Shown: positions 34,008 to 56,287 of the stretch, piece by piece | Layout of the letters: each line of letters starts with the position of its first letter | How positions within the stretch are numbered: the stretch's first letter is position 1 | Assembly: GCA_973895155.1 (NCBI GenBank) | Contig: OZ316891.1 | Span: forward strand, 20,348,169-20,412,168 | Reading direction: 5' to 3' | Length of the DNA stretch: 64,000 nucleotides | DNA from: Marsupella aquatica | Lineage: Eukaryota; Plantae; Marchantiophyta | Made by a program: the position numbers and the translations under genes | Notes under the pieces: model-generated | What the model was told of the DNA's origin: nothing | Database searches by the model: none | The model's input: only the letters and a program-made list of their open reading frames with translations

Positions 34008-37000
34008 CTACTTGTGATGCAATTGCAAAACCTGCAATACGTCACGGTGTCTAGAGAAACTCTCCAAAGGAATCACTTTGGTAAATGCGTCAGCCGGGTT
34101 GAGTTTACCATCAATCTTGACTAGCTCAAACAATTTATCAGACACAGCCTGCCTGATAAAATGGTACCTGACGTCAATGTGCTTCACTCTGCTGTCCATC
34201 ACCTGGTTCACAGCAAGGTGGAGCGCACTTTGACTATCACAATGGAGCTTCACATTCCCCTGTGGCAATCTCATTTCAGTGATAAGTCTATCCAACCAAA
34301 TCGCTTCCTTTGCTGCTTCCGCAGCTGCAACATACTCCGCTTCTGTAGTAGACTGAGCAATACACTTCTGCAAAGTAGACCTCCAACTTATGCATCCACC
34401 GCCAAGTGTGAACACGTATCCTGTTGTTGATCTCCTTCGGTCCAAATCTTGTCCATAGTCAGAATCTACATAGCCAATCAATGATCTAGCATTCTTTGCA
34501 TTCGCATCAAATAAAAGACCATGATCCACGGTACCCTTCAAGTACCTGATAATCCACTTCACTGCTTCCCAGTGTACCTTCCCTGGATTCGACATGTACC
34601 TGCTCACCTTGCCCATAGCCATGGCAAGATCAGGTCTAGTGCAAGTCATCAAATACATGAGACTCCCCACTGCCTTGTCATATGGAACCTTTGACATCAA
34701 CCCCTTCTCTGTGTCATCCGTAGGACAGAACGCTGATGATAACTTGAAGTGTGGAGCCAACGGGGTACTTACTGGCTTGCTATTCTCCATGTTGAACCTT
34801 GCAATTACCTTCCTCGCATAACTGCTCTGCGTCAACCATAGCTTGCCAGCCTCCAAGTCCCTAGTGATCTCCATACCCAAAATCCTCTTAGCTGGCCCTA
34901 AGTCCTTCATCTTAAACTCTGCACTAAGCAGTGCCTTGAGCTTAACAATCTCAGACCTATCCTTGGCTGCAATTAGCATGTCATCCACATAAAGTACTAA
35001 AACAATGAACCCAAAGACAACATTCTTCACCGGTTTCAAATACACACAAGGGTCAAATACACTTCTGTGAAAACCTTGTGACCGAATCCAATCGTCAAAC
35101 CGCTTGTTCCACTGTCTTGGTGACTGCTTCAACCCATACAAGGATTTCAGCAATCTGCAAACCAATTCCTCCTGTCCTCTCTTCACAAAACCTAGCGGTT
35201 GTCTCATGAAGATCACCTCTTCCAATGTGCCATAGAGGAAAGCTGTGACAACATCCATCTGATCTAGGAGCAGACCAAACATTACAACAAGTACACACAA
35301 TAGTCGTATTGTAGAGTACTTAGCAACTGGTGAGAAGACCTCATTGTAATCCACACCTTTCTCTTGTGTGAATCCCTTTGCTACCAATCTAGCCTTGTAG
35401 ACCTTCGATCCACCTCCTATGGAATTATCCTTCAGCTTGTAAATCCACTTGCTGTCCACCACTTGCTGACCCTTAGGCAGCTTAACAAGCTCCCAAGTTT
35501 TGTTGTCCTTTAGTGACTGCATCTCCGTTTGCATTGCTGCAGTCCACTTCTGCTTCTCCTTTGAAGCACTTGCCTCATGAAATGAAGAAGGTTCTCCTTC
35601 TTCCAAAATTAACGCATCACCCTCATCATCAGCTGTAAAATCATCCTCTTGCAGTTGAGATGAATCAACCCACTGTCCATACCTTGATGGAGCGCGTACA
35701 GTGCGACCAGATGTTCTTCTAGCCGATGACTCCGGTTGATCTGCGTGTGCTGGTACAATTTGAAGCTCAACAGCATCCACTTGCTGCTCACCAGCATCAA
35801 CAAACTCCTCTGGTTCCTCTGGCACAGGAACCAGCTCCATAATTGGAGCAACTCCTTCTCTCCGGTCATGCACCTCATAACCAATCTCCCCCTCAACGAG
35901 ATCCGGGATATGAGATTTTCCTTTGTCAGTACGGGAGACCTGAGTATTCTCCCCCTCCTTCAATAATCTGGATTCATTGAAGGAAACATCCCTACTGACA
36001 ACGAGCTTACAGGCAATAGGATCCCATAGCCTATAGGCTTTCACACCACTCTGGTACCCAAGAAAAATACATTTTCTGGAGGTAGGATCCAACTTGGTCC
36101 TATTCTGCTTTGGTGTGAGAGCATATGCATCACTTCCAAAAATTACCAAGCCATGATAGTCTGCTTGCCGCTTATAGCGCATCTCAAACGGCGTTTTGAA
36201 ATTGATAGCACTAGAAGGAGAAAGATTTACCAAATAAGCTGCGGTATTGACAGCTTCTGCCCAAAATTCTTGTGGTAAACCTGATTGGCTCAACATACTC
36301 CGTGACCGCTCCAACAGTGTCCGATTGAGCCTCTCAGCGACACCATTCTGCTGCGGAGTATAAACTGTGGTGAGATGGCGAGTTATCCCCTGTTCTGAAC
36401 AGTACTCTTCAAATTCCATTGAAGTGTACTCCCCGCCGTTGTCTGACCTCAGACTCTTCACCCTTGTATCCAAACACTTGATCGTGTTTCCAGTCTGATT
36501 CTCCACCTGGGCCTTCCACTTCTTAAAAATGGACAAGACATCAGACTTATGCGTCATGAAATAAATCCACACAAATCTTGAGTAATCATCAATAAATGAT
36601 ACATAGTACAACTTTCCAGAGTGTGAGGGAGTCGGGGATGGACCCCACACGTCACTATGTATGTACTCAAGAACCGCTTTGGAACGATGAGTTCCAACAC
36701 CAAAAGCACGACGATGCTGCTTTCCAAGAATGCAATGCTCACAAAACTCTAATTTACAAGATTGCAAATCAGAAATGAGTCCATTCTTCCGTAAGATAGC
36801 CAAACCCTTCTCACTCATGTGGCCTAGCCGTGAATGCCACAGTTGAGTCATCTCCTCGTGAGACTTGGTTACATTGGCCTCTCCACATACAGTATTGCCC
36901 TGTAACACATACAAATTCTTTTGTCTACTCCCCTTCAAAATCACTGTCTCTCCCGACCTGACTTGAAGTTCACCATCAATAACGCTCCATTGATGACCAT

Positions 37001-37280
37001 TTGAATCCAACACACCGAGTGAAATCAGATTCATACGCATGCCAGGTACATACCTGACTCCGGACACTGTGCGCACAGCGCCATCAAACATTTGAATCTT
37101 CACAGACCCAATTCCCTCAATTTGACAGGAGTGATCATTTCCCATCAAAACTGAACCGTTTGAAACAGAGTAAGAACTGAAAAACTCACGAATGTAACAA
37201 ATATGAAAAGAGCAAGCACAATCAAGAATCCACACATCATCTGCTCTCCTAGATGACGTGCACAGGGCATACCCCCGGCT
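34008..37280 (-). CDS. pol: Copia pol region (protease, integrase, reverse transcriptase, RNase H), uninterrupted
   Basis: PR: WILDCACSFHIC. IN: WHSRLGH...CEHC, HSDVWGP, SDNGGEY, PQQNGVAER. RT: YKARLVAKGF, QMDVVTAFL, SLYGLKQ, LYVDDML. RNase H: GYVDSDY, AEYVAA, HCDSQSA, KHIDVRYHF. Confidence 0.95.
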   Translation of the reverse strand, partial: SRGYALCTSSRRADDVWILDCACSFHICYIREFFSSYSVSNGSVLMGNDHSCQIEGIGSVKIQMFDGAVRTVSGVRYVPGMRMNLISLGVLDSNGHQWSVIDGELQVRSGETVILKGSRQKNLYVLQGNTVCGEANVTKSHEEMTQLWHSRLGHMSEKGLAILRKNGLISDLQSCKLEFCEHCILGKQHRRAFGVGTHRSKAVLEYIHSDVWGPSPTPSHSGKLYYVSFIDDYSRFVWIYFMTHKSDVLSIFKKWKAQVENQTGNTIKCLDTRVKSLRSDNGGEYTSMEFEEYCSEQGITRHLTTVYTPQQNGVAERLNRTLLERSRSMLSQSGLPQEFWAEAVNTAAYLVNLSPSSAINFKTPFEMRYKRQADYHGLVIFGSDAYALTPKQNRTKLDPTSRKCIFLGYQSGVKAYRLWDPIACKLVVSRDVSFNESRLLKEGENTQVSRTDKGKSHIPDLVEGEIGYEVHDRREGVAPIMELVPVPEEPEEFVDAGEQQVDAVELQIVPAHADQPESSARRTSGRTVRAPSRYGQWVDSSQLQEDDFTADDEGDALILEEGEPSSFHEASASKEKQKWTAAMQTEMQSLKDNKTWELVKLPKGQQVVDSKWIYKLKDNSIGGGSKVYKARLVAKGFTQEKGVDYNEVFSPVAKYSTIRLLCVLVVMFGLLLDQMDVVTAFLYGTLEEVIFMRQPLGFVKRGQEELVCRLLKSLYGLKQSPRQWNKRFDDWIRSQGFHRSVFDPCVYLKPVKNVVFGFIVLVLYVDDMLIAAKDRSEIVKLKALLSAEFKMKDLGPAKRILGMEITRDLEAGKLWLTQSSYARKVIARFNMENSKPVSTPLAPHFKLSSAFCPTDDTEKGLMSKVPYDKAVGSLMYLMTCTRPDLAMAMGKVSRYMSNPGKVHWEAVKWIIRYLKGTVDHGLLFDANAKNARSLIGYVDSDYGQDLDRRRSTTGYVFTLGGGCISWRSTLQKCIAQSTTEAEYVAAAEAAKEAIWLDRLITEMRLPQGNVKLHCDSQSALHLAVNQVMDSRVKHIDVRYHFIRQAVSDKLFELVKIDGKLNPADAFTKVIPLESFSRHRDVLQVLQLHHK

Positions 37281-38315
37281 TCATAAAACATACTCATCAT
37301 TGAGTAAATCAGCTTCTCCATCAGCCCTAGCCACATTTGTCGATGAAGTTTCCGTTGCCTTTCCCTTACAGTCTCGCTTGAAGTGTCCAACTTGGTTGCA
37401 CTTCCAACATGTCACCTGCCTCCTCTGAGGGGATTTACCCTTGGACTTAGATATGGATTTAGATCTAAACTGGGTTCTATGGTCCCCAGTTGGTCGCTGC
37501 ATACTCCTCCCACGGTTAACATTGAGGGCAGCACCAGATGATGAAGGCTGTGACGTGATGTGCATCTTCTGCTAAAGATCATCACTAAGCAGAGAACTTA
37601 CCACGTCATTGTATGAAATGGTATCCCTATCACGATGCAACAACACTCGTGATAGGGACTGGTAAGATGGAGGCAATGAACTAAGAAGCTGCAGAGCCTT
37701 CGTCTCATCATTCAAAGTCTCCCCAAGGTTTTCCAAGTCAACGACCATGTCGTTGAAAGCATCCACATGGTCTTGCAACTTCGTACCAGATTCCTTCATC
37801 CTGAAACTCATCAGTTTGTAGGAAGTGTAGAGCCGGTTCGACAACTCCTTGCGGTGATACTTGCTCTGCAATTCCGCAAATAAGGACATGCAATCCTTAT
37901 GTGCACCCAACTGCTTGATGATGGGAGGCATGAGATAGAGTGTAACACACCACACTCCCTGCTCCTGCATGCGGTCCCATTGTTTCTCATCAACATCGTC
38001 TTCACGAGGGCTCAGCAGTTGGCCCATCCCTGACGCATAAAGCACTCCCTTCACCTGCTTCTCCCATAGCAAGTAGTCAGAGCGCCCATCATACTTTGTC
38101 ACTTCATACTTGGGTCCCCCAAGCTTGAAAGTCCCCATCTTCTTCTTTACCGTGAGCTCCGGTAGTAGTACTGCTTCCTCCACCACACGCCGCACCGGTG
38201 ATGGTATCGGTGTCACGTGCTCTTCCTCCTGCTCCTCTCTCTGCCCCTGAAACCTCCGCGGTGACCCTCGTGCTTCAAGTTCCACGTCTTCGAAAAACTC
38301 CTCCGAATCACTCAT
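37281..38315 (-). pseudogene. gag: Copia gag region, same frame as pol but with in-frame TAG (37574-37572) and TGA (37283-37281)
   Basis: KYEVTKYDGRSDYLLW, a UBN2-type core (HVDAFNDMVVDLENLG, LLSSLPPSYQSL) and the zinc knuckle CWKCNQVGHFKRDC. The three ORFs 37572-38315, 37281-37565 and 34008-37235 share one frame. Confidence 0.85.
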
Positions 38316-39455
38316 ATGAGAAAGTCACAAAAAATGTTGTTTTTCACAACTTCTCAAAAAACTCGAAACTCAACACCGCCGCGTAGCCCACAAAGCTAGG
38401 AGTCCAATACTGAAAACCGAAATCAAAATCGAAATTTGACGGAAAAGTTATTCAAATTTCGGTCGAGGTGGGTAAAACCTTGGGAAACTCCCCCGTTTTG
38501 ACCACCTCAGGGAATAACCGAAATACCAAGTACAACCCGTTGTCGGAATTGCGATGTGATTGGTGCGCTGCATTGCCAACTTCAATGGCTACGACCTCGC
38601 CGAAAAATAACCAAAAAAGTTACCGTTCGGCGGATGAAATCTTTGTCGGACGGTCAAAAAATAGCTCTCTGGTTTTTTGGAATATTCTATGACCCTTGTA
38701 CAGGCCCTGTGGGAATTTTGGAAGAACAATCGAGGGGCTGACATGTGTCCTCGAACCCCCAAAACCCCCTACCACCCTTCGTCGTCGAAATCTGGTCGCG
38801 CGCGCAGAAAATACACACGGCAGAATGTACCCCTCGACACCAAACGCAAGATATCTCACTCGGGTTTTGACTAAATCAAGATCCGATTTCAGATTTGGAA
38901 ACTAGACTCCGAGGCGATGAAGATCGATATAAGAAGCACCCAAAACGAGGAAAGAACGAGGGAGAAAAAAATTGGTAAAGATGACAGATTTCTCTCAATT
39001 GCCATAGCCAATTTCGAATCAGTTTTTCAAAGAGAAAAAAATGGTACCTTGTCAACAACGAATGTTGATCAATTGCACTTGGTGTCGTCACCAAGTCCAA
39101 CAAGGTAATTGATTTTGCTTAGCCTTCCTCTTTGCATCAAAGAGCCAATCTCGGACTCAAAAACAATCGTCTTGCCTCAATCTCTCCGTTGAGTCAAAAC
39201 ACTTGACGCTTCTCCCTCCGAGTCGATTGCCAACTTTCTTCACAAAATCCAGAACGACGAAAACTTAGATCTCTCTGCACCACGAGCTCCGTTCAACGAT
39301 TTCTTCACACCGTTAGAAAGCTCTTGCCCTGATCTATCCGTTGAGCCCATAAACTCCAAGTTCCATGCGATGGAACTCTGGAAAATCCACCAACACTCAA
39401 CGCTGGAAAAACCGTCATGAAATCCCGTCACGAACACACGTCACCTCCCAAGCAT

Positions 39456-39467
39456 GCTCTGATACCA
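39456..39467 (-). other. Primer binding site complementary to the tRNA-iMet 3' end
   Basis: Plus strand GCTCTGATACCA, 2 nt inside the 5' LTR. Confidence 0.9.
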
Positions 39468-39469
39468 AT

Positions 39470-39872
39470 TGTTGAGCATAGACGACGATCGCAACGGCAA
39501 GCCCATGAACCATCCAACGCACAATAGTCGACACAAGAGATACGTGGTTCACCTCCTTGAGGCTACGTCCATGGGAACACACAAGAGAGCTTTACTGAAC
39601 TCTAAGCCCGTCGGCTATACCGAGTCTCCACAGTGTAAGCTCTCCCTATCTCTCAAGTGGCTCCATAACAATGAGCCTTGGTTCTACCTCTCCAAGCACA
39701 CATGCCTCTTATGATATAGTGTGCAACTTAGTTGTACCTAACCACATAGTTGTACCTAACCACATAGTTGTACCTAATCACGTAGTTGTACCTAACCACA
39801 TAGTTGTACCAACCCACATTGTTGTACCAACCACGTCATACCTAACCTAGACGTAAGAGTAAATACCCAACA
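39470..39872 (-). repeat. 5' LTR of the copia element
   Basis: 403-bp direct repeat of 33414-33816, followed by the PBS. Confidence 0.97.
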
Positions 39873-42821
39873 AACCTAACTTGGAACTAGTTTACAGCAT
39901 ACAACTGACACTAACATGGAGATAATTATGTGATTGACACAAAGATATGTAGTTCGCCCTAGGGTACATCCACAGTCTTGAGAACAAATTCGCTTTGCAC
40001 CATAGCCTATCAGGCCACAACCCGCTCTATGACTGGATCATCTTATCTCCCTGAGTCACTCTCCCCTAAACTGATCTCTAAGTGTGATGACAACGAAGTG
40101 CTCCTCCAAGGTAGATTGTCTCTCGAGTAGTCTACTCCCACCAACCTTCACTGTGGTTAACCTTACCACACATTAGAGTTCAGACGATGGATAAAGTGCC
40201 TCGTGGCGGGCCTCATGGTAGGGCTTTACATAAGATTCAGCAATGCCATGAAATTGGGAGTGCTTCAATCGATAGGTGTCAAAGCTTTCATCTTTACGTG
40301 TGATGGGGGACTGCTTCTTTCAATGGGCATCTCAAAGCTTCATCTTTATGGGTGATGGCTTTTGGCCATAAAGAAATGACTGTAAGTTTTTTCATAGGGT
40401 TATGTAAAAGTTTTATTAAGTTTTTTGGTTAACCTGTACAATAACTTACAATTATTGTTTGTAGCAAAAACAAAAGGTTATGGATGATGGATTTGGTAGT
40501 CCATAAGTTATTCTGTAATCTTAACCTAGCTTTTTTCATTCATAATCCGTAACCTTAATGTAGTAGTCAGGATACATTAAGTTTTGAGGTTTGACACCCC
40601 TGGCCTATTAATATATAGATTGTCCACCATCTCATCATGTAATTAATTTCAGAAAGCTCTATGCCAAGATGGACTTTGCTACTGGGATGGATGGCATATA
40701 AATGTTGAGATTGCTCAATAGCATTCCACAAAAGAATAAAATGTAACTGCCAAACCAAAATCTATTTGGTGAGATCATCTTTCAAGCTGGTTTCTTGGTG
40801 GGTTTCTATGCAATCACTCAACCTCTCAAACCCACTTAAGCTTGTTCGATGGGTCCTCACTTATTTTCTTCCTACCCATCCCGTGCAAATAAGTATACAT
40901 AGGGTTTTACATTTGGTACCACAAGAATAATAGGGTTTTAAACCTACTTTTGCAAATCATAAGAACAGATAGGGTTCTAAAAACCATAATTGAGAATATT
41001 TTTAGGATATATACCCCAAAAGATAGGGGTGGAAATTTAGCATAGAAGTAAATCTTATTTTTGAGGGTGTTTATTGACTAAAGACAATATATGAAACCAC
41101 CCTTAGAGTGGTCGAGGCCCTCAATAGCTTATTAAAAAGGGCTTCAAGTGAGCTTTCTATTGAACCAATTTTCCTGCCAATTTTCACTCAATTTTGATCA
41201 AATTTGGAAATTTTGTGAAATCCAACGGCAAGATAGATTTCAAGATGTATGTGACTAGATTAGGTAGTATGACACTTTTTACCTGCATGTCAAATGTCTA
41301 CTCCCACTTTCAATAGACTCTTTGAGTGATATTCCAATTTGTATTGCGGTGCATCAGAACCTATGGGCTAGTTATTAGTTACTGCAGAAGCTAGGGGCTA
41401 GGTCACTTTTCAATAGGTATTATATTCAATTTTGGTCAATTGAAGTCTTTACATTTGGCACAGAGAGGCAACTAGAATGCTGTTGGAGCATCTCCAACCC
41501 TTGCTGTGACTGGGTGTTGACCGAATACAGTAACTAAAATGCAAAAGTAATGCCCAACCCATTCTGAATATAGCGCTGTCCGGATGTCATGCACTGGTCT
41601 ATTTGTTTCAATCTGAACAATTATGTATTTGGAAGACAAAACAAAGTTTGGACTTTCTAATGTGTTCAATGGTGGGTTTTCAAGATTGTATCATATGGTG
41701 GCTCGTAAGATGCTGATTCCAGTCGAGAAAAACTGGAATAAGGGTTGGGATAAAGTTTGATAAAAACCTAAAAAAACCTTATTCAGTAAGGATTGGAATT
41801 GACACATTAAACTAACTAGCGAATGTGTGTTGTTAGACTGAGTGGGTATTTATTTCTTACATCAACTCAACCCAGTAGTCTTTGAAGATGGTCTTACCTA
41901 CCACTCCAAAATGCACTAAGGGCACCTTAATGCATGTCATGATTTTTTCATTTGTAGTTTTGGGTCTTTATAAAAAAGATTTCACAGTCCAGATTATTCT
42001 TACTCAAAATACTGCTAGAATAATAAAAATGAAAATTCTCTTAGGCCTTTAGGTGTGTTAATGCCCTCCCATTATGGACTATAATAGCCCCTCAAAACTC
42101 AAATACATGTTTATTGGGGCATTATGGCTCATAATGCCTTATTAACAGGGTGTTACTTTATAAGTACTTTCAAGAGTGATGGCTTTGTATTTTGAGGGCC
42201 TTTATATGATACATATACACCTTGCTTTCGGAGGAGTACATTGAAAACTTTGGCTAATGAGGTAGTATATCACACAATGCCCTCAAATAGGACATTTTTA
42301 CCCTATCCATAATGACAACTAGCAGAAGTGTTGTCAAACATAAGTGAGATATCCAAGTAGTCAGATGCTATGGCCAGTGAGTGAGTCTGGCAACTGGAGT
42401 ATGCGAGCTGGGAAGATAGTGACGGGTTGGTTGTGGAAAGTGCACACCGGCACCTATATGTCATGTTATGGTTAATCGAACACTAGGGAGGCTTCCCACC
42501 AGATTGACTTTATATGAACAAAGCATGAGAAAAAGAAGAAGGAAATTGCATATTATTTTCCCGATTATATTATAGTGTTTAGATAGTGGGACTTACTATA
42601 CTACCACTTTTTTTGGCACATACATTTCTACTGAATATTATTCCATTTATCACAATGCTACTGATTTTATTTATGGGCTAAAAATTAAGCTGAGTTGGCT
42701 CTTTCACATCCAGTGGCTCTCACCCAATTTTGCAATTGGATGGCCAAGTCAGTTGACCAAGGGGTGGGCCATGTTAGGGTTTTGGGTCAACTTATTTACT
42801 TAGGCTAAACAACCATTAGAT

Positions 42822-43100
42822 TGTTAATGTGGATTAGCTATGACTCTAGTATCTAGCATGTAGAGGGCTACAGAGAAATAATTTTGGAGACTCATGCTCA
42901 TTGTTGAGGGAGCAAACTAGATGTTAGGAGAAGAGCTTGTGCTATGTATGTTTGGTGTGACGGGTCTAGAGTATAGTGAAGCTCTTGTGTGTTCATGTGG
43001 ATGTAGTCTAAGTGGAGATGAATCACAAATCTCTTGGTGTCGGTGTGCATGCTTGCTGGTTGTTCATTTCTTGTGAGTGTCACTGGTCGTTCTCCCAACC
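42822..43100 (+). mobile_element. Degenerate solo LTR related to the copia LTR, in opposite orientation
   Basis: GCTCATTGTT...GGAGC..., GACGGGTCTAGAGTATAGTGAAGCTCTTGTGTGTTCATGTGGATGTAG...GAATCACAAATCTCTTG aligns by eye with the reverse complement of the young LTR (GACGGGCTTAGAGTTCAGTAAAGCTCTCTTGTGTGTTCCCGTGGACGTAG...GAACCACGTATCTCTTG). Boundaries are approximate. Confidence 0.7.
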
Positions 43101-43244
43101 TGTCGGGTGATCTTGTCCTCCAATACGCTTAGTCTCTATACAGGATCAACCTGTCCAACCTCTTCCTCCATCCGACGTCTGGTTGAGGGTGGTCAAAGTA
43201 CTTTGAGGGAGCTATCCAATTGCAATACTTGGTGCAATGACAGC

Positions 43245-43368
43245 CATTGGATGTGAAAGAGCTAGTCAGGGATAATATTATTCACTCTCAAACAAAAATA
43301 GTGGCATTGGATGTGAAAGAGCTAGTCAGGGATAATATTATTCTCTCTCAAACAAAATAGTGGCATTG
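43245..43368. repeat. Near-perfect 60-bp tandem duplication upstream of the transporter gene
   Basis: CATTGGATGTGAAAGAGCTAGTCAGGGATAATATTATTC.CTCTCAAACAAAA(A)TAGTGG occurs twice. Confidence 0.9.
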
Positions 43369-43997
43369 TGACTAATTATTATGTAAATTATTATGTGGCA
43401 AGGTATGTGTTGTGCCAAAAACGAGAGGTAACTTAGTCAGAGGGAACTTGGAAATGGCAAGTTCATGTCCTGTGAATCTCAATTTCTGCGGGCAGTATTG
43501 ACGCTCTCTGTACGCCAATCCCCGAGCGAGAATTCGGTTCTCAGTCTCCTCTCTGGCGATGGATGGCCTCATTATTAGGATCTTGTCATGATTCCCTCTC
43601 CACTCCTTGCTTTTGAATCATCCATTCATTCACTTGTAGCAAAAAGAATCATGCATCAGTCTCTCGGATGCGTTCAGTTTGCTCAACAGAGCAGAAGTTG
43701 AGCAGAAAGACCCACAAGAGAGGAAAACTCGTTCTGAAATCGAAGTGCAGCACGGTGATGTGATTGATGTGCGTGTGAACGATGACGGGAATGTTCAACT
43801 TGGGAGCTTCCCGCACAATCAGAGCCCTCCCCTCATCTTCCATCTGTATCCCTCTCCGACCCAATTCTGTTCTAATTGACCCACGAGCGAGATTTTCTAT
43901 TCCAGAACTCAGTAGGACGATTTCGATTTCATCTCGCTGCTGCAGCAAATGTGATTGCTGTCCATTGCGCGGCGGCCATGAACTCCTCGACAACTAC

Positions 43998-46900
43998 ATG
44001 GCCAGCTCGGTCCTAGGCTGTTTATATGCAGCAGCAAGGCCAGCATCCAAAGTCCGCCAAGCTTCTCCTGAATTTCGCAATTCCGGTGGCCTGATTCGGC
44101 TGGCTGTCAGAAAATCGTCTGAGTCGTCGTCAAAAGCAGAGGAATCTGTATCTCTTCCCACTAGTGAAGGCGAATCCGTCGTGCAGACTTCAGATGAGCT
44201 AGAGCGACGCCGCGTAGAAAGGCTGTTCTCCAATTTGAATGAAGCCACTCTGAAACACGAGCCCGGTACTTCCCCTCATTGTTCTCTGTTAGTTGAAATT
44301 ATGTAAGTTGAAGTGCTTAATTATGCAGCAGTGATTTCAGCTTCTGTGGTGGTGGGAGATTCCTTTTCTTTGGTAGGATTTGAAATTCTGACTGGGGCTC
44401 ACTGGACATGGCGGTACACTTGGATGCATCGAGTGCTAGTATCTGGGGATTTACCATATGGAGAGAAAACAGAGTGCAGCAGTGATTTCAACTAGTGGTT
44501 GGAGATTTTATTTCATTACTAGGATTTTAGGGGCTCACTAGTCGTGGCCGTTTATTTGGATGCACCGGGTGCTAACATCTGGGGATTTACCTATATGGAG
44601 AGAAAACACAGAGTACGGTCGTCCATTACAGACTATTTTCCCCCCTTCGGTGTTCTATCAGTCAAATAAATCAGTCATGTAATGTGGACGAGTTTTTGTT
44701 CTCAATTCTTGGCTCTATATGGGCACGCGTTTTTTTTTGCTACCACATTAAATTCACCCATTTTCTCATGTAGGTAGATGATGTAGATTTGCTGTACGGG
44801 GAGTTTTCTACTTGTCTAGAAGTGGTCAATGTGATCAGAGAGGTGTAAATTAGAGGCCAGTGATAGTAAACGCTAACACGTTTTCCGTAATTGTGTTGAG
44901 AAGGTAGTCTCAGCGGCTCCATCCTACTCGTTGCAGGCACGACGGTACTTAACTTGCCCTGACATGGATTGCGATTTCCTCTGAGTTTGGTTTCTAAGAC
45001 AACGCACGGAAAGACCACCTGATAGTACCCGTTTCAAAATGCATAGTAGCCTAACTATGGAAAGTTACCGAAAAGTTGACAACTGGTATTCAAATGCGAT
45101 GGCAATGTCGAAAACCCTACAGTTAAGCCTGTTTAAACCTTGATAGTCTGTTAAGCCAATTGAGCTTGATAGAGCTAGTTTTTTTGAGCGAACCTCCTCT
45201 TCATAACCTTGGTTCTAATCCCGAATTTCTGGTCTCCTGTTACGTCTGCAAGGTTGGAGCAGGAATTTTGGCCATACCTGCCGCAACCCAAGATGCTGGT
45301 TTCGTGGCTTCGGCAGTTACTTGTGTAGCTTGCTGGTCCTACATGGTAAGATCAGTTCCCCATGCATGGTTCCAGACACTTCGTCTTTTTGAAAATCAGG
45401 TTTCAACCTATTGTCGAAGACAATCTGCTGAGATCTGTGATGCAGGTCGTAACAGGACTGCTCGTGGCCGAAGTCAACATAAACACTATGTGTGAGCTTG
45501 GCTCGGGAGGGGTTTCACTGGTAGGAAGTCTCAACTTCCCCCGTTTTACTGTTCACGGTGGATGTTTTCCTTTCTTTGATGATATGGTGAAAGTGTAGGT
45601 ACGAGGTTGTTGCCTCTTATATGTTTTACAAAGCGCTCTAGAAACTCCATTAATATTGGCCAACGAGTTGAGGTGAGTTCATTGCACTGATTGAATTTGG
45701 GAAGAATAATGGTTGCATCATTATATTGTGGACAGGTGTCAATGGCTTCCCGGACCGTGGGAAAAGCTGGAGTTGGAGTAGCCTGGTAATGCCTGCCACA
45801 CACACTTGTTTTTTACTGATTACTTTGAGCCATAACGTGAACTTGGGAGAGGCTAAGAAGCTCCAAAGGATTTTATTGTCGTACTAGTGCTCAACTCCCA
45901 TGCAAATATGTTTTCAATTGACTTTACCAAGTCTCACAGTTCATAATTGATCGTGTTGATACCATTTTCTATTGGGCAGTGGCTTATATCTTCTCTATAA
46001 TTACACTCTGGCGGTGGCTTATGTGGCCCGCTGCTCCAGTCTTATCTCCGATGCAATTGCTTCTCCTTTGTGGGTTTGCTTCTGAACATTTTTGTTTATG
46101 CGCACAAGACGATCGCCCTAAACCTTACCACATCAGTGTAGGACACAATGTTTGGAAATTAACTTTATTGGCTGGTGTGTATTGTGCTTGATGACGGGGC
46201 AGTGTGACCTATCTTTGTATTCATTATGCACTGCTCGTAGCATATGTGGCCCGCTCCTCCGAACTTGTTTCTACTGCAGTCGGATCACCTTTGTGGGTTT
46301 CCTCTACATGCGAAGGACTGTTCATGGAGATTGTTGTTGTTGATAATCAAGTTACTACCTTATAAAAAGTGGGCTTACTTTTAACGACTGTAGTTGAATT
46401 CCAATCTTCTTATTATGGCAGTGAAATCTAAATAGAGAGCCTTTGAATATGTTTTGCAGATGGCTGAGTGGATGCCTATTCACGGGAACACTTGGAGGCC
46501 TATGCTACTTTGGCAGGTAAAACCATCATAAGTGATGCATAACTGACTAGTGACAGGATCTGTGCTCGATGAGTTTCAGAGAGCGCCAAGATGGTTATCC
46601 CTTATCTATATTTTACTAAAAGACTTGTTTCCTGGTGCAGTCAGCAGACAATTGACATCGTCAATGGCGCTTTGGTGGGTGGCATTATTGTCACTTTCAC
46701 GGGACTGGTGGTAAGTTGCAACATGTTTGTCTATTGCTATCGCTGACTTTTGTGAGGGTTACGCTAGCGCTATCGCATCCAGATAAGCGAGGATGAGCCC
46801 TCAAATACGTATGGTTACAGGCATGGATACGATTCAAAAGAATAGGACTGGGTTTTGACGATCCCCAATTGGATCTTTGTTGCTTACTTGACTAACTTGA

Positions 46901-48964
46901 CTGAAGCTTTCGGTGCTGATGCACTTCTTTGAAATTAGATTAATGCACTGATTCCTTGCTGTATGGGGAATTCCACATTAGGCTATGTTAAAATAGACTT
47001 AACCGATGTATCCGCTAGACCTATAGATGAAGTATATTTTCTACTTTGATTTCAGCTTTGACGCACATCGATGCTCCTGCCCAACTTTATTCTGGTGCTT
47101 GTTGGCCTCTGACCAGGGAGTAGCGGCAGGTGGACTGGAGCTGGATTCCTTACTGCGGATAAATTTTGCAGCAGCCCCTCAAAGTATACCTATCATAGCA
47201 TTATCTTTTGTCTACCAGGTGAGATTCTAAGTTTGCTTTGAGCAGAATTGGCAAAGTTTCTTATCTCTTGAACTGCGGTTGTGCTCGCAGATTCAGATGT
47301 TCCATTCTAAATCTTTTGAAGTTTCATCTTGGCTTATTCATTTGTTTACTTCATGTTTGATCTTTACCTCGTAGTGTAGTTACTTTCGCTCTGAGGGGTG
47401 TATTCAAAAACTTACAGTGCTTTGTGTAATTGTCCAACTTGTATCAGAATGTTGTGCCGGTTGTCTGCACCAGCTTGGAAGGAGATCTTCCAAAGATAAG
47501 GTTCGTTCAAGAGATTCTAAATATCTGAATACGAGGTGATGGGTCTTGGATGGCTTACGGGCATCGGGATTTGCTCAATAACCATTTCGTCCTGTGACTT
47601 GTGACCAGGACTTCAATAGTGCTTGGGACAGCCATACCTTTGCTCATGTTCTTAGCATGGGATGCAGTAATTCTTGGAAGTGTAACTTTCGACCCAAATG
47701 AAGTAACTCAAAGAGTAGTGGATCCGCTGTCCGCATTGCAATCATCCAATGGCATCGTCGCAGTGAGTATCTATTTGCGTTGAGGCGTATTGCCGTGCAG
47801 CTGTTTAATTTGGGGAATGGGTTTTACCTGTGTGGTGTTGTTGAATTCATTGTGAGATAATCACGTCAATGTGTGCATTAAAAATCTTTTGTTTATCAAT
47901 TTTCAATGGTTTCTGTCGGTGTTTTAATGCTGTGAAATTGGAAATCCTGGAGTCCGTCACACTTCTTGTTTATGGGCAAGTCAACTTGTTTTTCTTTGAA
48001 TAGTATCTGCAAGGTTATATGATCCTTGGCAGAAATAACAACAAGAAAGTATTTGCTAATAATTGTGCTTGTTTGTTCAATGCAGCCACTAGTGAGAGTG
48101 TTTTCTCTGCTTGCCGTGGCAACCTCGTACATAGGATTTGTTCTGGGCCTCTCTGATTTTCTTTCTGATTGTAAGCATCAAGAAAGCCCATCCACTAATA
48201 TTTTTACTTGACGCAAAGCATGGCCCATTTGCTACGCATTTTAACCAGCAGAGAAAAGGTAAAGGTGAGACTCTTCTACCTGATGTCAGATCTTTTAGCA
48301 GGCAGAAGTCAATTTTTGATGACTAAGGAGAGACTCATTGATCTGGTGTTCGTGTAACAGTGCTGAAGATGCCAGTTGGGGGAAGTAGAATGTCCTTGCC
48401 CTACCTACTGACATTACTTCCCCCCCTTGCATTAGCATTGACTTATCCAGGCATCTTTTTTAATGCTCTCGACTTTGCAGGCACCTATGGAGGTAAATTT
48501 TCTCTTCCATATAGTTGCTCCACCCGTTACTTTAGTGTGTTTCAAGATCTGCTCGTGAAAGGCTTTGATCTAACCACAATGTCCAGATGTATCGATCTAT
48601 TGTCTTCCATGGTCAAATCAAAACGAATATGGGCGTCAAGTGCGACGCTTCACAAGAGGGCAAAGTTGGATGTTCATTTCCTTCTCTTCAAATTGCCCGA
48701 GTTTCATAGGCTAGGCTGTTAAAGATGGTTTTCTTTAAAACGTCTTGAAGACTGATTTGCTTATCTATTGTTGTCGGGATTGCAGTGCTGGTTCTCTTTG
48801 GTATTCTTCCCGCAGCAATGGCATGGTCAGAACGATACTCAGACAGATGTCTAACCCCTTCGACCCCTGCCCTTGTCCCTGGCGGCCGACTGACACTGGT
48901 TGCTGTCATTGGGTTGGCCGTTGTGATAATAAGCTCGGAGCTCTTGGGGACTCTTTTACCCTAA
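43998..48964 (+). CDS. Tryptophan/tyrosine permease family (HAAAP, TyrP/Mtr-like) aromatic amino acid transporter, probably plastid-targeted
   Basis: Exons: 43998-44265, 44904-44944, 45253-45345, 45446-45520, 45736-45785, [6a 45980-46069 and/or 6b 46203-46292], 46460-46516, 46641-46710, 47117-47218, 47448-47500, 47609-47762, 48086-48170, 48361-48492, 48786-48964. Motifs: LVAGTTVGAGILAIP, GLLVAEVN, HYALLVAYVARS, SFVYQNVVP, IVLGTAIPL, AVATSYIGFVLGL, FFNALDFAGTYG, VPGG. Ser/Ala/Arg-rich transit-like N-terminus. Confidence 0.92.
44324..44614. repeat. Diverged tandem duplication (about 150 bp) in transporter intron 1
   Basis: TGCAGCAGTGATTTCA...GGGGCTCACT...TGGATGCA...ATCTGGGGATTTACC.ATATGGAGAGAAAACA occurs twice. 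Confidence 0.8.
45980..46069 (+). CDS. Transporter exon 6a, the diverged duplicate of exon 6b
   Basis: GGGCAG acceptor, 90 nt, phase 2-2. Encodes (C)GLYLLYNYTLAVAYVARCSSLISDAIASP(L). Donor TT|GTGGGT. Confidence 0.7.
46203..46292 (+). CDS. Transporter exon 6b, the family-consensus-like copy
   Basis: GGGCAG acceptor, 90 nt, phase 2-2. Encodes (C)VTYLCIHYALLVAYVARSSELVSTAVGSP(L). Donor TT|GTGGGT. Confidence 0.85.
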
Positions 48965-50506
48965 TTTCTCTTCACGCGCTCTAGGGGTGCAACTATTCCC
49001 GATTGATGTCCAAATCCACAGAGGGATTATAATTGAGTTTGAAAGTCAGGCCACTACAAAAAGGAAAGAGGCAGCAGGTACAAAGCAGCAGAGCCATCAA
49101 AGGGGAAAAATGATATAACAAAGAAACGTAAGAGGACTGGAGTATTTAAATTGCATTACTTTTCGCTGTCGCTTGAAGGAATTTATTGACGTGGGCTTGA
49201 TCCCCCAAACGAAATCGATTTTGCACCACTTTTCGATGAGGTGATCGATCTTGCTCAAGATACCACGTTCGCACCATTTCTAACTTGAAATCTTCGCGAT
49301 TCAGTTAACACGAAGGGCTCATGACATGCAAGATGGCTCTACACGAGAAACTCAAGTCGCCGATTTCGTATTCGTATTCGTATTCTACGTTTGAGAACCT
49401 GATTGAGCTCATATTCATCAAAATCCTATCTGCAGTCTCATTGTGTACGCCGACTTCTTTCTATATGCAAACATCATGTTTGGTGGCGGTGAATTGCCCG
49501 CCCATCCGTGAGGATCTAGTTGGTCGGCGGACTACGTAGCAATTCTACTGTTTCTCTTACTTATCAGATCTTTCTGTAGTCGGTATTGTACTTCTAGCTG
49601 TCCCGATACTTATTGCTGTAGAATCTATCATGCGTGGATCCTTATTGGTGTAGAATCTATCAAGTGATGGGAATGACTCGTATGAAGAGTGTGTGAGAAT
49701 TGTAAGAGGGGATGGGCGATTCACCTTAATTTCTTACAGCTAAATCACAATGTACAATAGTTAGGCGCGTGCGCGAATATTTGGATCTTCTGTACTATGT
49801 CGTTTCGTCTAATTACGTGCAAAATAATGTACAAATCTGAGATGTCTGGTCTCAGATACTTGGCAAAGAATCCATTTTTTCGTAACTTAAAGCCTCTATC
49901 GCTCGAGGGCATTTGATATGCAAGGTAACGGATTGTCGTTTGGGCCACATCAATTACAATGCTCGTGCCCTACTAGTCCATCGTGGCAATGTAATTCTGT
50001 GGAATGACCAAGAAATTGAAGAACTGATATGCCCCATCGATACTGCATTCTTCGCCGGTCGAATTCTGAAGTTGTGACTCACTAGTCTTTAACTACATAT
50101 ATTACATACGCCCCCTAGCTATTTGATCTAAATTACAGGAGGCTGCGTTCTCTCTTGGGTTCATCCTTGCGGTGATCAGAGAGACCCGTCAGAGAAACAC
50201 CAGATTACAGGACGCAGCCTTAACCTGTGTGTGGTGTGTTGTGGGTGTGGGCTACCTACCTAGTTGCTAGGATTAGTTGATGACCAATTCTTTGCTAATT
50301 ATCCTCTTGAGCTCCGTGTGATGTACATCAGACGATTTGTCGAATACTCCAGAGTTCATGCCAACACCAATGAATGCTACAATTGGGGAGCTAATCTACC
50401 TAGGACATAGATAGAGACCAACTGACGTGTGAGCTCTAAAACAACACAGCGAGCACAATTTGCCGCTAGATCGGAGGGAGGGGGAATGACTGGCCTTACT
50501 TTAAGG

Positions 50507-53500
50507 CTAGCAGTTCACGCCGCAACTTTCCAACTTGGGCCCAACTGTTTGTTTTAAAAAAGGATCTATACGCACCCACAGGAGGGAAAAAATGGATGCA
50601 AGAAGAACTGACCAAACCACGACAATGGTAGGAGTCCTATTTTGACGTCCCATCAGACCTTTCAGGAATGGGTACAAGTGCACGATGACCCAGAAAGCAA
50701 AGAAAAGTTTGCCGAAAAGAGGACCCCACGATTGGTAACCGTTGTTGATGGCATCCGAAATCCCTGCGACAACGCCGACCAGATTGACCACGAGCAACGT
50801 GGTGGGTGGGATTAACAACGCCGTCCACTTGATGGCATACAATTCTCCGAAGTTCTCATCCTCGCCAGCTTTGGTAGTCACAGTGAAGTTTGTTTCCACT
50901 CCTGCCAGCACCTTGAGTATCCCTTGGAAAAGAGCGAACAGATGGGATGAAACACCTCCAATCACCCAAAATTGCTCATTCCGCCACCACTCGTCCATTC
51001 CTACGTGACTCCATCGCATCTCCAGTATGCCAGTCGCAAAAATTGAAAGAAACAACGATATAAACCAAAAACTTTCGAAGTTGCTTATCTGCAATGCATG
51101 CCAGAATCACAACCATGAATTAGAAATATTACATGTCATTACCAGGCTACAGTTACACTACGGGGCCTCAACATGATCAGTCTAGCCTGTAACTAGGTCT
51201 GAGTTCAGCATAAGTTTTGGAGAGACGAGAACGTTAAGAGGCTCAAGAGCAAAGGTGTCCATAAAAAATATACTCGTCATTGTGTGATATGACTGCATGG
51301 ATAGAAACAATCCAGTAATTACAACTCAAAAATCTGACAACTGTTTATATCTCTGGTACTGCGTACGAAATCGCCAAGTTTCAATCGCTTCAGGTTACAG
51401 AAATTACCGAAATACTCGACTGGAACCAGAACTAAACACTGGATGTTTCTCATGCTCGTATCACATTCTGAAGCAGTTCAAATCATGTTTTACCTCAGAG
51501 AGACGAGTACTGGCTATCACTTTCATGAAGGTTACGTGACGACGCTTTTACGCGGGAGACTCTAATGTGAAGTTCTTACCTTGTTTATCGGTTTTTGTAT
51601 GCATTTCCATTATTCACATCAAGCTTTCTAGAGGTCCCGGAGAGAGGAGAGGGCACTAGAGGGGTCTGAGAAGCATACCGTCGGAATGATGAATTTCCCC
51701 GTGAGTAGACAGACTGCTGGAAGGCTACAATACGCCACAAGGGGTAACGATGTCAAAGGATATACAGTTGTGTTTATGTAGGCCAGTCTTTCCAAGCATT
51801 TGAGCCGTCCTCCCCCATATCCATACCAAAGTGGACAATGTCGGCTCAGTAAAATCTCTACCGATCCCAGAGCCCAGCGCAAGACTTGATGCAGACGATC
51901 TGTCAAATTGATGGGCGCAGAGCCCTTGAATGCCGCCCGTGGGGGCATGCAGTAGATAGAACGCCAGCCTCGACAGTGCATCTTGAAGCCAGTGAGAATA
52001 TCCTCTGTTACCGAACCGTATATCCATCCAATCTGGGACAACGCATGCGCACAAGGTGTCAGTCCCTGTTACTCATAGCCATGACAAGAGAAGGTCAGTC
52101 AAGCTGGGTTTCTTCGGAGAATGATCTTGAACTCACCTCCTTTCCCCAATCTGTCTTGTCTTCGTAACCACAGCTGATTACATGGATGGCTTCCTTGAGC
52201 ATTGAACTTGGGTTGGCAGCCATCGCCACACCTCCTTTCTCCTGCTGCGAGGACTGAATGAAAACTGGAGACTGTCCAAATCTCTTCTCCATAGATTTCA
52301 TAGACCTCGAGATCAGATTCAATTCTTCACCTGCGAGAAGCCCAAAAACACTTTTGTAAGACCACAACTCAAGTAGCAATCGTCAGCGGGAAATAACATG
52401 CAGGCAGATTCTGTCTCTTAGAGGACGCAAGCGGGCAGGGTAGCTTGGCTACAGCAATCAACGTACTCTCTACGCCTTCCTCGATGTCTTCCAAGGTGAA
52501 CGCTGAGGCAGCTGTTTCACTCCGTATCTTGCTATTGTTCCTGAAGTTGACAGTCTTCTTCGCTGAGCGTTTCGGTGTTGCTATGTCCCTGCCTGGCTTG
52601 CGAGGACCACAACACCATTCCACACACGCGGAATTTTTGCCTTCCTTGGGGGATTTAGGAGGTGGATAATAACCATACACAGCCTGCCTTCTAAAAACAC
52701 ACCCTGTGCCGACGTACACAGGACCCTGAACTCCATCAAGACCTTTCATGTTGATCTGCGAAAAGGATAGGCAACAATTTAAAAAGGATTTCTCTAGAGA
52801 ATTTGAGATGATTCCTTAGCAGGGAGACCGACGAAAAGCAAGCAAGTCACCAACGGTAAGGGCCTCCAAGGTGAGCAATCTAGTTGTTGGGCATCTGCGA
52901 AACTTACATCAAAGAAGACCGTATTGTGATTGGCATATCGATCATTTCGATCAATACCATCAAATCTCTGTGGAAACTGGACGTAGCAGATTCCTTTCCC
53001 AGCAGCCGGATCCATCAGGAAGCACATTGCTTCTCTGAGCGCTTTACTGTTGTTGACGTAATGATCACAGTCAAGATTAAGAATGTAGGGGGCATTCGTG
53101 AGGACTGCAGATACACGCACCTGTGCGTGGTAATTCAAGTTTACAAGTTAGTAGAAACACACTGAACCGCAGAAGGGAGAAATCAGAACAAATACAACAT
53201 TGCAGCGGCAGAAGGGGCAGTTCTCACTCACCAAAGCGTTCATTGCCCCAGCCTTCTTATGATGATTGAATCCGAGCCGCTTTTCTCGAGATACATAGAC
53301 AAGACGTGGGAGCTCATTACCCTCTACATCGCGGCTACCGCTGTGGCCCAAAAATACCTGCGGGAAGCAACATGCGTCAGCTTGCTCCCTAACAATAGTG
53401 ATCGCCCGGATCATGTCGCGGAAAATTAGTTCCACGTCCTCACCTGAATCATTGCTGGGTGATCACGGGGATTACATGCAGGCCAAGGCGTTCCGTCTAA

Positions 53501-56287
53501 CATTGACCATCCTTCGTCCGGCATCTTGAGAGATCTAGCTACAGCCGCATTGACACGAACCTTAAACTCCTCGTACTCCCGCTGCAAAACAGTTGGGCTT
53601 AGCACCATAAGAACGTTTCACAGTAGAAATACCCAGAAAAGAAGGAAAAGCAACAGGCTCCACTGTTGTTTCTCGTTCCCGGCCAACCGTCCTACACTAA
53701 CATATAATTGCAAAGAGCCATAACTCTTTTAAGTAAGGGTGATGCACTGGTCTCGAATACAAATGGTTTGTACAGTACCTTCATGGCCCTCCTTTCTTTG
53801 ACAAAAGTTGGTTGAATCTTGTCTTTCAAGTAGTCCAATTTTTGAGCGAAGTACACTTCAGGTGCGCGAGGTTCAATGTTGAATTTTTTGCAGAATGGTA
53901 CCCACTTCCGAGCGAATTCGGAGGTGTCTGCAAGAACCTCGAAAGTGAGCATGGCCGCGCCGTCATCAGATAGGTAGCAAGAAACCTTCGCCACAGGGTA
54001 GTCCACAGCGAGGATTGATAGAACAGTGTTGACCGTCACTAGAGGAGGTTCTTTTGTTGGGTCTACCGTGCTGACATACACGTCGACGGGAGTGAGCAGA
54101 GATGGTTGACCTGCCGGCTCAAATCTGCAACACAGCAATGCTGTATATCAATTAACGCGTTGAAATTGCTTCCTTCTACCTCTTTGGAGATCTAGTAAGC
54201 TTCCGCTGTTGTTGCTGCTTGTATAATGGACCTCATACAAGTATGGAGAAGTCCAATTACCTCGTTGTCAGTCTGTCAAGGTAAGTCTCACGGTTGACAG
54301 GAAGCCACTTAGGAAATTGATCCAGGATCCAGGAAATTGCAAACCATATCTCGCACACGACGGAAGTGAGCCATAAGCCATAGGCATCACGAACAGGATT
54401 CATAATGCGGTATCTGAAGAAAAAGCCTATGATGAGGAGTCGTAAGATAATTAAAATCCTATAAGGATTGATCAAGCTGGAAGCAATCGGATTTTTGCGT
54501 GACAGTGGCTGCTTGCCCTGATCCTTCCTGTCATTCACAAGCGGACCGTAGTAAGTCAAAACACTGGTCGCAATAGATTCCTGTGAGAAAATCCCCTCAC
54601 CACTTTTCTTACTCTAAACAGCAACATCAGGAAGAAAAACAAGAGCAAAGCAACAATTTGCTGTTGACATAACATAGGCAAGGAGTTTTTACAAGGGTAT
54701 TTCAGGCCCGCCGTCCTCATCAAAGCGTGGCAAAAAGAATTGGCCTCTATCTGACGTTTGCATCTGCATCTTTCCTTGCCTCTCTCTCCAACTTTCCACC
54801 CGATCCTTCCATGCTATGGAACGATGATTCACTTCATCTGCAGCGTCCATATTTATGGCGAATACTGCGAACAGAGAGCTGCTAATCAGAAGCTAAAGCT
54901 TGAACAGTAAATCGAAGCACAAACACCAACGGACATAGGAAACAGCAGCAGCGTAAGCTTCAGTTCTTCGCAGTTGAATTAACCACGGCCTTCATATGGC
55001 AAAAGGATACTTGTTTGGACATCCAACATCCTTGCTATGTATACCTGGAAGCGATCCTGCACTGTCGATACTGTCTGCACTGTAGGATGGATGGGCCCGC
55101 TTCCCTCCACCATTGTGTGCGGGTGGAACCATTAGAGCCCGCCGGTCTGGAGAGGGTCCGGGAGTGCCCAAAGCCTACAAAGCAAGGGTCCGAGTGAACA
55201 CAAAAATACGTGATTAGATACAGCTCGATTTTATTTGTCAGTGTACAAAACGACTCCAGTCTCTAACACAAGTTTTAGTTCTCGTATTTTGCGTCGTGAA
55301 GGATAAACCTTGTCAGAAAAACCCTGAAAGTTTTATTAACTACTTCCACCGCAAAATGCTTTACAGAAACACTCACCCCAGGGCCATTAGTCAGCAGGGG
55401 AACCTGCGGGGAGAACGGAATATTGTTACGGTCACACGGCGGATCTTCGTCGTTTGGGCGAGCGGACTGCATTTTTGCATGATGACTAGACTCAATGTAG
55501 TTTTGCCTTTCGTGGTCCACATAGTCAAACTCGTTCTCCAAGTCATCAATACCATCCTCCTCTTCGTCACCTTCGACTCGAGAGCACCCTGGGCAAGTAA
55601 GAAGAGTCAGCATTGTTCTACGACGATGAGAAAACGAAAATAAAAGCTCGATGTAGAGAAGAAATGAATCAGCCGACTTTTGTCCCCACCATATACATTC
55701 TGACGTCAGAGTGGAGACTTTGGGGGAGACATCACCAACTCTGGCACTGAAGTGCGAGAACACCATGTACCTCGGAGACGACGGTATCGAGTTTTGCAAT
55801 GTGGGCACGACTGAGTCCCTTCCTTCCGTTCGTAATTATAACACGGCCGGCACACTGGAAATGCGCATTCGTCACAGGCCACAAAAAATTCGTCGTCTGA
55901 GGCACTTTCAATATCATCACCACAGATAGCACATTCGCCGGCGTAGAGCTTAGTTGAGGGCCTAGGCTGCAACCGAATCAATCGCAACGGAACTGAGTGT
56001 CATCATTGAGAGAAAATCCTACAAGTCTACACCATTAAAACTCTACATACACACTGACACTAGATTGCGAGAGAGACATCTTAGCTTCCCACTAGGGTGG
56101 CACGGTGTCGGAAATATTAGTGGCACGGTGTTTGCGTGACCTGGAGTCATGAAGTAATTGGGTAAGAGGCAACAGCTGCGAAATGTGCATAGAGCAACAG
56201 GAAGACTCGAACCTCACTCTCCGCTCGAATTACGACTAATTCATCCTTGCGGTGCGAACCAGCGACGAGCCCTCCGTTGGCCTCCAT
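50507..56287 (-). CDS. CESA: Cellulose synthase catalytic subunit; 14 exons
   Basis: Exons (5'->3'): 56287-56213, 55966-55771, 55588-55377, 55174-55045, 54864-54693, 54527-54261, 54124-53779, 53581-53444, 53357-53232, 53120-52908, 52755-52467, 52330-52137, 52032-51679, 51088-50507. Start [16 protein letters not shown] zinc finger CAIC...CDEC...CRPC...CPHC, SDDG, DCD, TED, QVLRW, FTVTTK, and C-terminus CGVNC. Confidence 0.97.

What the first reader, a model, noticed from the sequence alone, without database searches (positions are those of the whole stretch)
45980..46292. Intact tandem-duplicated 90-nt exons in the aromatic amino acid transporter: candidate mutually exclusive splicing that swaps a transmembrane helix
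Seen in sequence: two homologous exons of exactly 90 nt, both phase 2-2. Each has a GGGCAG acceptor and a CCTTT|GTGGGTTT donor, with no stops or indels. They share AYVAR and SPL but differ strongly elsewhere (GLYLLYNYTLAVAYVARCSS vs VTYLCIHYALLVAYVARSSE), and the flanking intron sequence has diverged. That pattern suggests selection on both copies. Established: HAAAP/TyrP-type permeases are APC-superfamily (LeuT-fold) carriers, where TM3 lines the substrate site, and mutually exclusive exons are considered rare in plants. Inference: this exon encodes the TM3-equivalent helix, so exon choice (IHYALL vs YNYTLA) could switch substrate specificity or affinity (Phe/Tyr/Trp) of a plastid-envelope transporter. 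Including both exons keeps the frame but would add one helix and invert downstream topology, which argues for exclusivity.
Basis: partly seen in the sequence, partly recalled or inferred. Interest (0 to 1): 0.85.

Follow-up and report, generated by a model that had tools for sequence, protein, structure and literature searches.

The report
Swappable pore-helix exon in liverwort transporter
A plant amino-acid transporter gene, likely from a leafy liverwort, carries two tandem copies of the exon for a core membrane helix; one copy is the standard version and the other is a changed copy that appears kept by selection, so the gene likely makes two alternative transporters, but no RNA was available to show this.

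Summary
A 14-exon TyrP/Mtr-family (PF03222) gene, 80% identical to a Calypogeia fissa protein, has two 90-nt phase 2-2 copies of exon 6 (57/90 nt, 16/29 aa identical). Either copy alone gives 554 aa; skipping both creates a stop; both together stay in frame. The copies are not equals: 6b is the ancestral form (HYALL core in nearly all of 120 plant-type and all 80 cyanobacterial homologues); 6a reads NYTLA, seen in none. Neutral decay of 6a fits poorly: differences cluster by codon (p about 0.004), length and splice sites are intact, and a second organism's DNA shows no change in 6a while flanking introns vary (p 0.03-0.09). In a model of the relative, the exon encodes the second half of TM3 of a LeuT fold. 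Not shown: any splicing (no RNA run), any device enforcing exclusivity, any 6a-like copy elsewhere, the substrate, or plastid location. Best reading: either-or splicing with 6a a minor, functionally altered isoform (0.5); a relic or a dampening exon remain open. The scan noted similar transporter exon pairs on other DNA (animals, a protist). Known kind of event; rare in plants.

The parts
43782..44265 (+). Exon 1 from the ATG; encodes an N-terminal extension of about 130 residues (Ser/Arg-rich, candidate plastid transit peptide)
   Evidence: Open frame and alignment to Calypogeia P0001; residues 1-121 of the relative have pLDDT under 50; cyanobacterial matches start at residue 133-157 in most rows
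44904..45785 (+). Exons 2-5 (44904-44944, 45253-45345, 45446-45520, 45736-45785): TM1, TM2 and the first part of TM3
   Evidence: GT-AG boundaries and phases; PF03222 on exon 3
45980..46069 (+). Exon 6a: derived 90-nt copy, core reads NYTLA; no charged residue or proline in its first 16 codons
46070..46202 (+). 133-nt intron between the copies: U2-type, weakest donor class in the gene (4 of 9 consensus), most pyrimidine-poor acceptor (7 of 17), branch-point-like TTAAC 41 nt before its end; read-through from 6a meets a stop at 46083-46085
46203..46292 (+). Exon 6b: ancestral-type 90-nt copy, core reads HYALL; 26 of 29 residues identical to Calypogeia fissa
   Evidence: weak PF03222 match, E 0.037
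46269..46398 (+). Candidate 14-bp stem between 6b (46269-46282) and the next intron (46385-46398) that would enclose the 6b donor; post hoc, not above chance after allowing for the number of windows
   Evidence: mean pairing probability 0.65 in a local fold
46460..48964 (+). Exons 7-14 (46460-46516, 46641-46710, 47117-47218, 47448-47500, 47609-47762, 48086-48170, 48361-48492, 48786-48964 with the stop)
   Evidence: PF03222 on exons 11, 13, 14

Best explanation
The gene carries two tandem copies of exon 6 that are likely spliced one at a time, so it would make two 554-residue transporters that differ in 13 residues of the predicted TM3 helix and its loop. Shown: the duplicate, its intact borders, the frame outcomes, and that 6b is the ancestral form. 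Inferred from statistics: 6a has been under protein-level selection while evolving several times faster than 6b. Inferred, untested: 6b is the main isoform; 6a is a minor or conditional one. Its His-to-Asn, Leu-to-Ala and Ser-to-Cys changes fall on one helix face with an invariant Tyr that 6a keeps, so the pocket or the inner gate would change; altered coupling or affinity is at least as likely as a swap among aromatic substrates. Exclusivity would be soft: the short intron between the copies joins the weakest donor to the most pyrimidine-poor acceptor and would splice poorly; transcripts that skip both copies or keep that intron meet a stop; double inclusion would add a helix and misfold.
For: Equal length, phase and splice words. 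Both borders are ancestral: 6 of 6 intron-bearing plant loci show the same 90-nt exon in one copy. Differences cluster in codons: permutation p 0.004 in frame, 0.47 and 0.22 out of frame; still p 0.02-0.03 without codons 1-7 or without the identical run. Under 'neutral 6a, constrained 6b', conditioned on no stop and 31-35 differences, such clustering occurs in 0.1-1.2% and the family score in about 2% of runs. Fifteen other two-copy duplicates in the window show 22 indels per 150 substitutions, so no indel at 20-33 substitutions has probability 0.05-0.008. Organism B contigs: 0 changes in 6a and 6b against 20 in 494 nt of flanking intron (p 0.033). Skipping both gives a stop at codon 248. Animal APC transporters use homologous alternative exons (SLC7A2, SLC12A1; PMC8373072 passages) and TM3 holds a coupling residue in GkApcT (PMC5803215 passages).
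Against: No splice junction was seen: the four runs laid are intron-containing contigs with no joints. No 6a-type sequence was found anywhere: 0 of 146 protein segments, none (weak searches with short queries). 6a breaks residues that never vary (His 120/120 and 80/80; Leu 120/120 and 80/80), as decay would. Pairwise dN/dS of 0.45 is also what neutral decay of one copy gives. The polymorphism test drops to p 0.094 with all nearby intron sequence (25 in 919 nt). No hard exclusion device: branch point about 92 nt from the 6a donor, U2-type sites, length divisible by three, fold z-score +1.6. Short tandem duplicates are common in this genome, so the duplication needs no special cause.
Confidence: 0.5

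Rival explanations
1. 6a is a silent or nearly silent relic: a duplicate that was once used, or never was, and is now skipped, with 6b constitutive.
For: All 146 homologous segments and the Calypogeia model use the 6b type; 6a changes invariant residues and sits on a long branch (0.55 against 0.1-0.2); many neutral two-copy duplicates nearby; dN/dS 0.45 fits.
Against: Codon-wise clustering, family score, no net indel, intact splice words; no change in organism B; 6a has the better pyrimidine tract of the two (11 of 17 against 7 of 17). A recently silenced exon would pass all but the last two.
Confidence: 0.27
2. 6a is spliced but works as a brake: it gives an inactive carrier, or is included together with 6b, or leads to the retained-intron stop, and so turns transporter output down.
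For: Double inclusion is in frame (584 aa) and adds a hydrophobic segment; no device forbids it; loss of the invariant His could kill transport; read-through stops five codons after 6a.
Against: A brake needs splice sites, not a conserved peptide; yet the 6a peptide keeps helix character and family-typical residues more than neutral runs do.
Confidence: 0.15
3. One reading: strict mutual exclusion that switches specificity among Phe, Tyr and Trp in a plastid-envelope carrier (a subset of the best explanation).
For: TM3 lines the site in APC carriers (PMC5803215 passages); fold match to aromatic-acid carriers such as LAT1 with Trp; N-terminal extension.
Against: Substrate and location are unknown for plant TyrP (PMC4916741 passages, 2016); no residue-level mapping could be made (one search gave no sequence match).
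Confidence: 0.12
4. Assembly artefact or two haplotypes joined in tandem.
For: None found.
Against: The copies differ at 33 of 90 nt; one contig spans the whole stretch (X1, likely the source) and contigs of a second study cover both copies and the intron between them in overlapping pieces.
Confidence: 0.01

Closest known systems
Tandem-duplicated alternative exons of animal APC transporters: SLC7A2 (CAT-2A/2B) and SLC12A1 (NKCC2 exon 4a/b/c)
   Same: Homologous alternative exons in a LeuT-fold carrier (listed in PMC8373072, passages); CAT-2A and 2B differ about ten-fold in affinity (PMC5803215, passages).
   Different: There the isoforms are proven by RNA and assay. In CAT-2 the difference lies in the TM8-9 loop; here it lies in TM3 and removes invariant core residues. 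PMC8373072 says the SLC12A1 exons cannot be joined without a frameshift; here double inclusion is in frame.
Predicted mutually exclusive exons of Arabidopsis (Kassiopeia, PMC3923563 section 17)
   Same: Same criteria: equal length, frame, homology, splice sites; 99 internal candidates were predicted, none annotated as such.
   Different: Other genes; no evidence of selection was given in the section read. In the liverwort Riccia fluitans 169 of 19,045 events were called MXE by rMATS (PMC13642808, abstract and passages), without a test of homology in what I read.
Plant TyrP/Mtr-like permeases (PF03222; Calypogeia CAM6098858.1, Marchantia, Physcomitrium, seed plants)
   Same: 80% identity to Calypogeia, about 60% to Marchantia, Riccia and mosses; same exon-6 borders.
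   Different: All protein records examined hold one 6b-type segment; no second copy in 6 of 6 genomic plant loci (none known to be a liverwort).

Membership tests
TyrP/Mtr permease family (PF03222) | Profile match | tested here: met
   5 of 8 single exons match PF03222, two above the curated cut-off; relatives carry PF03222
APC superfamily / LeuT fold | Fold | tested here: met
   Model of the 80%-identical relative: Z 36.1, rmsd 3.1, 376 aligned to SLC7A10; TM-scores 0.5-0.55
TyrP/Mtr permease family (PF03222) | Aromatic amino acid transport | not testable with these tools
   Name rests on homology; needs an assay
Homologous mutually exclusive exons | Adjacent homologous exons of like length, same frame and phases, valid splice sites | tested here: met
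Homologous mutually exclusive exons | Each copy alone gives a full-length protein | tested here: met
   554 aa with either copy
Homologous mutually exclusive exons | Junction reads from each exon that bridge the other | not testable with these tools
   No RNA run was available; runs laid are DNA-like contigs
Homologous mutually exclusive exons | No exon-joining reads | not testable with these tools
   As above
Homologous mutually exclusive exons | A device that enforces exclusion (donor to branch point under 50 nt, U2/U12 clash, frameshift, competing RNA stems); not required, most human clusters lack the first three (PMC5740500 passages) | tested here: inconclusive
   First three absent; RNA stems not above chance
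Homologous mutually exclusive exons | Both copies conserved across species | tested here: inconclusive
   Unchanged in a close second organism; no deeper relative's DNA could be read; tree leans to a duplication older than the Calypogeia split, not significant
Plastid-envelope transporter | Transit peptide and location | tested here: inconclusive
   Disordered Ser/Arg-rich extension absent from cyanobacterial homologues; no targeting predictor run

The most novel reading that the evidence does not exclude
An old liverwort splice switch, predating the split from Calypogeia, rewrites the invariant HYALL core of TM3 so that one plastid gene makes both a proton-coupled aromatic amino acid carrier (His) and an uncoupled or re-specified one (Asn): a proven homologous either-or exon pair in a plant transporter, and a natural mutant that points at the coupling residue of the unstudied plant TyrP family.
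Probability: 0.13. Interest if true: 0.8.

Novelty: new member of a known kind. Interest (0 to 1): 0.47.

Why it matters
Homologous either-or exons that retune a transporter are well known in animals but mostly only predicted in plants. A validated case in a liverwort would show that plants use the same route and would give a compact system (two 90-nt exons, a 133-nt intron) for asking how exclusion works without steric, frame or U12 devices. Because 6a changes residues that do not vary in any plant or cyanobacterial homologue examined, comparing the isoforms would also test which TM3 residues set coupling and specificity in a family with no solved structure. If 6a is silent, this is an ordinary ageing duplicate.

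Tried and rejected
RNA evidence: no RNA holder listed; four runs laid, no joints. No whole genome is held, so paralogues and genome-wide splice-site models could not be checked. 6a-like proteins: none among 15 candidates, none at E 0.001 among cluster representatives (the same search did not return 6b-type relatives either, so it had little power); the metagenome scan gave 15 loci, 14 of 6b type and one chance match, L013, with no other likeness to the family. The protein atlas did not answer. Steric exclusion, U12 clash and frameshift: rejected. Competing RNA stems: none of 10 region pairs beat shuffles clearly (best 3 of 20 shuffles as good); three short stems picked from 14 inverted repeats look good one by one (p 0.002-0.008) but are post hoc, and two have pairing probability near 0. 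Pairwise dN/dS as proof of selection: rejected as uninformative. Residue-level mapping on solved structures: no sequence match; fold tools give ranges only. One search aligned overlapping stretches and was useless. The 6a isoform itself was not folded, so its effect on the pocket stays open. Literature searches listed no paper on this exon pair or on an assayed plant TyrP; supplements were not read, and the Riccia splicing tables (PMC13642808) or the Kassiopeia lists could bear on whether the orthologue is already flagged.

Full report
Gene and observation. Reading 42,000-50,500 and fitting GT-AG borders gives a plus-strand gene from an ATG at 43782 to a stop at 48964 with 14 exon positions, of which the sixth is present twice: 6a (45980-46069) and 6b (46203-46292). 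With either copy the frame is open for 554 residues; with both, 584; with neither, the junction forms TGA at codon 248. Outside the splice words the flanks do not align better than shuffles. Five of eight single exons scanned match PF03222. The nearest protein is from the leafy liverwort Calypogeia fissa: 443 of 551 aligned residues identical, against about 60% for Marchantia, Riccia and mosses. The source is therefore likely a leafy liverwort.

Which copy is ancestral. Of 122 proteins examined (one search listed the best 120 of 711), 120 gave an exon-6 segment and all are of the 6b type: His 120, Tyr 120, Ala 119, Leu 119, Leu 120 at the HYALL positions. Of 37 further cluster members, 26 cover the segment, all 6b type and single. 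In the best 80 of 339 bacterial loci, all labelled cyanobacterial and found with patterns from other parts of the protein, HYALL is complete in all (which also counted three metagenome loci). 6a has Asn, Thr and Ala at three of these places, plus Tyr for Ile and Ala for Gly; Asn, Ala and Tyr occur in none of the homologues, Thr in one. A metagenome scan gave 15 loci. Six are intron-bearing plant DNA (about three lineages) with the same 90-nt exon, same borders and one copy; two of them end within 450 nt after the exon. So the borders are old and the duplication is lineage-specific.

Is 6a under selection? Pairwise dS 0.94, dN 0.42 does not decide, because neutral decay of one copy beside a constrained one also gives about 0.5. 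Short two-copy duplicates are common here, which raises the prior for a neutral copy. Four tests speak against simple decay. (i) The 33 differences cluster by codon: 11 codons have none, 11 have two or three; permutation p 0.004 in frame, 0.47 and 0.22 in the other two offsets, 0.021 and 0.025 after leaving out codons 1-7 or 14-19. (ii) Simulations of a neutral 6a and constrained 6b, kept only if stop-free with 31-35 differences, reach this clustering in 0.1-1.2%, the family score in 1.7-2.3%, and lack a charged residue or proline in codons 1-16 in 11-13% of runs; amino-acid identity (8-9%) and hydropathy (32-40%) are not unusual. (iii) No net indel: 15 other duplicates in the window give 0.147 indels per substitution, so P(0) is 0.05-0.008; no stop, no indel and intact AG/GT together came out at 0-20% depending on assumed age and indel rate. 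(iv) In contigs of organism B, 6a and 6b show no change, while the three flanking introns show 20 events in 494 nt (p 0.033) and all intron sequence of the stretch 25 in 919 nt (p 0.094); exons 5 and 8 carry one change each. The haplotypes were pooled and are not independent. The models ignore multi-nucleotide mutation and gene conversion, and tests i-iii cannot exclude recent silencing. A tree of the 29 residues puts 6a on a branch of 0.55 against 0.1-0.2 for 6b and favours a duplication before the Calypogeia split by about 4 log units, but a later one is not rejected (AU p 0.14); one residue (Leu 21) is shared by 6a and 6b alone.

Where the exon sits in the protein. An AlphaFold2 model of the Calypogeia protein (105 sequences, pLDDT 76.5) matches APC carriers (best Z 36.1, rmsd 3.1, 376 residues). 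Counting membrane helices from 165-188, the third is 232-275; exon 6 covers 250-278, that is the second half of TM3 and the loop to TM4. By helical spacing His 7, Leu 11, Tyr 14 and Ser 18 of the exon share a face; 6a changes three and keeps the invariant Tyr (inference from periodicity, not from coordinates). In GkApcT a TM3 residue, Glu115, forms part of the inner gate and couples protons, and its Gln mutant shows counterflow only (PMC5803215, passages). Whether the His is its equivalent was not tested: no solved structure matches by sequence.

Exclusivity. No RNA could be examined. Known devices (PMC5740500, passages) were checked: the only fitting branch point lies 41 nt before the 6b acceptor, about 92 nt from the 6a donor, beyond the 50-nt limit; the sites are U2 type; 90 is divisible by three; the region folds no better than shuffles. 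What remains is soft: both donors are the weakest in the gene (4 of 9 against 5-7) and the 6b acceptor is the most pyrimidine-poor (7 of 17 against 8-13), so the middle intron is the least favoured one; skipping both or retaining it meets a stop. A stem that would enclose the 6b donor is a post hoc lead.

Comparison. It would work like SLC7A2 and SLC12A1 (PMC8373072, passages; PMC5803215); that the NKCC2 variants differ in ion affinity is recalled, not read here. In plants such exons are mostly predictions (PMC3923563, passages and section 17) and the rarest class in Riccia (PMC13642808, abstract and passages). As of 2016 no plant TyrP had been studied or found in plastid proteomes, though candidate transit peptides were noted (PMC4916741, passages). 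Other papers were seen as search listings only. The scan has no look-alike of this DNA but holds several notes on duplicated transporter exons in animals and a protist, which I did not test.

Verdict. A real duplicate that is probably under selection; either-or splicing likely but unproven (0.5); the substrate-switch claim is speculative. New member of a known kind, rare for plants; interest 0.47.

Noticed in passing
window 33300-39900: Copia-type LTR retrotransposon: gag (37572-38324, minus) and pol (34008-37280, minus) in separate open frames, flanked by near-identical long repeats near 33400-33950 and 39450-39900; looks recent.
   Followed up: partly
window 14600-17700 and 24300-25900: Two related bHLH genes in tandem; the second has a bHLH-MYC N-terminal domain.
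   Followed up: no
window 50500-54150, minus strand: Cellulose synthase gene (PF03552 on four exons) converging on the transporter gene.
   Followed up: no
window 29953-30408, minus strand: Serine hydroxymethyltransferase fragment (profile positions 55-122), beside a 40-nt tandem duplicate; gene or remnant not determined.
   Followed up: no
whole window; e.g. 44340-44615 in intron 1, 43245-43368 upstream: Many two-copy tandem duplicates of 40-150 nt, suggesting a high rate of short local duplication in this genome.
   Followed up: partly
window 46050-46412, run X4: Organism B run X4 holds two haplotypes, one identical to the window and one with substitutions and indels in both introns around 6b; mixed sample, hybrid or polyploid.
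   Followed up: no
window 44898-44903: The exon 2 acceptor has two AGs three bases apart, which could allow a one-codon alternative.
   Followed up: no
window 45757: The window encodes Val where organism B has a G-to-C change giving Leu, the residue seen in Calypogeia.
   Followed up: no
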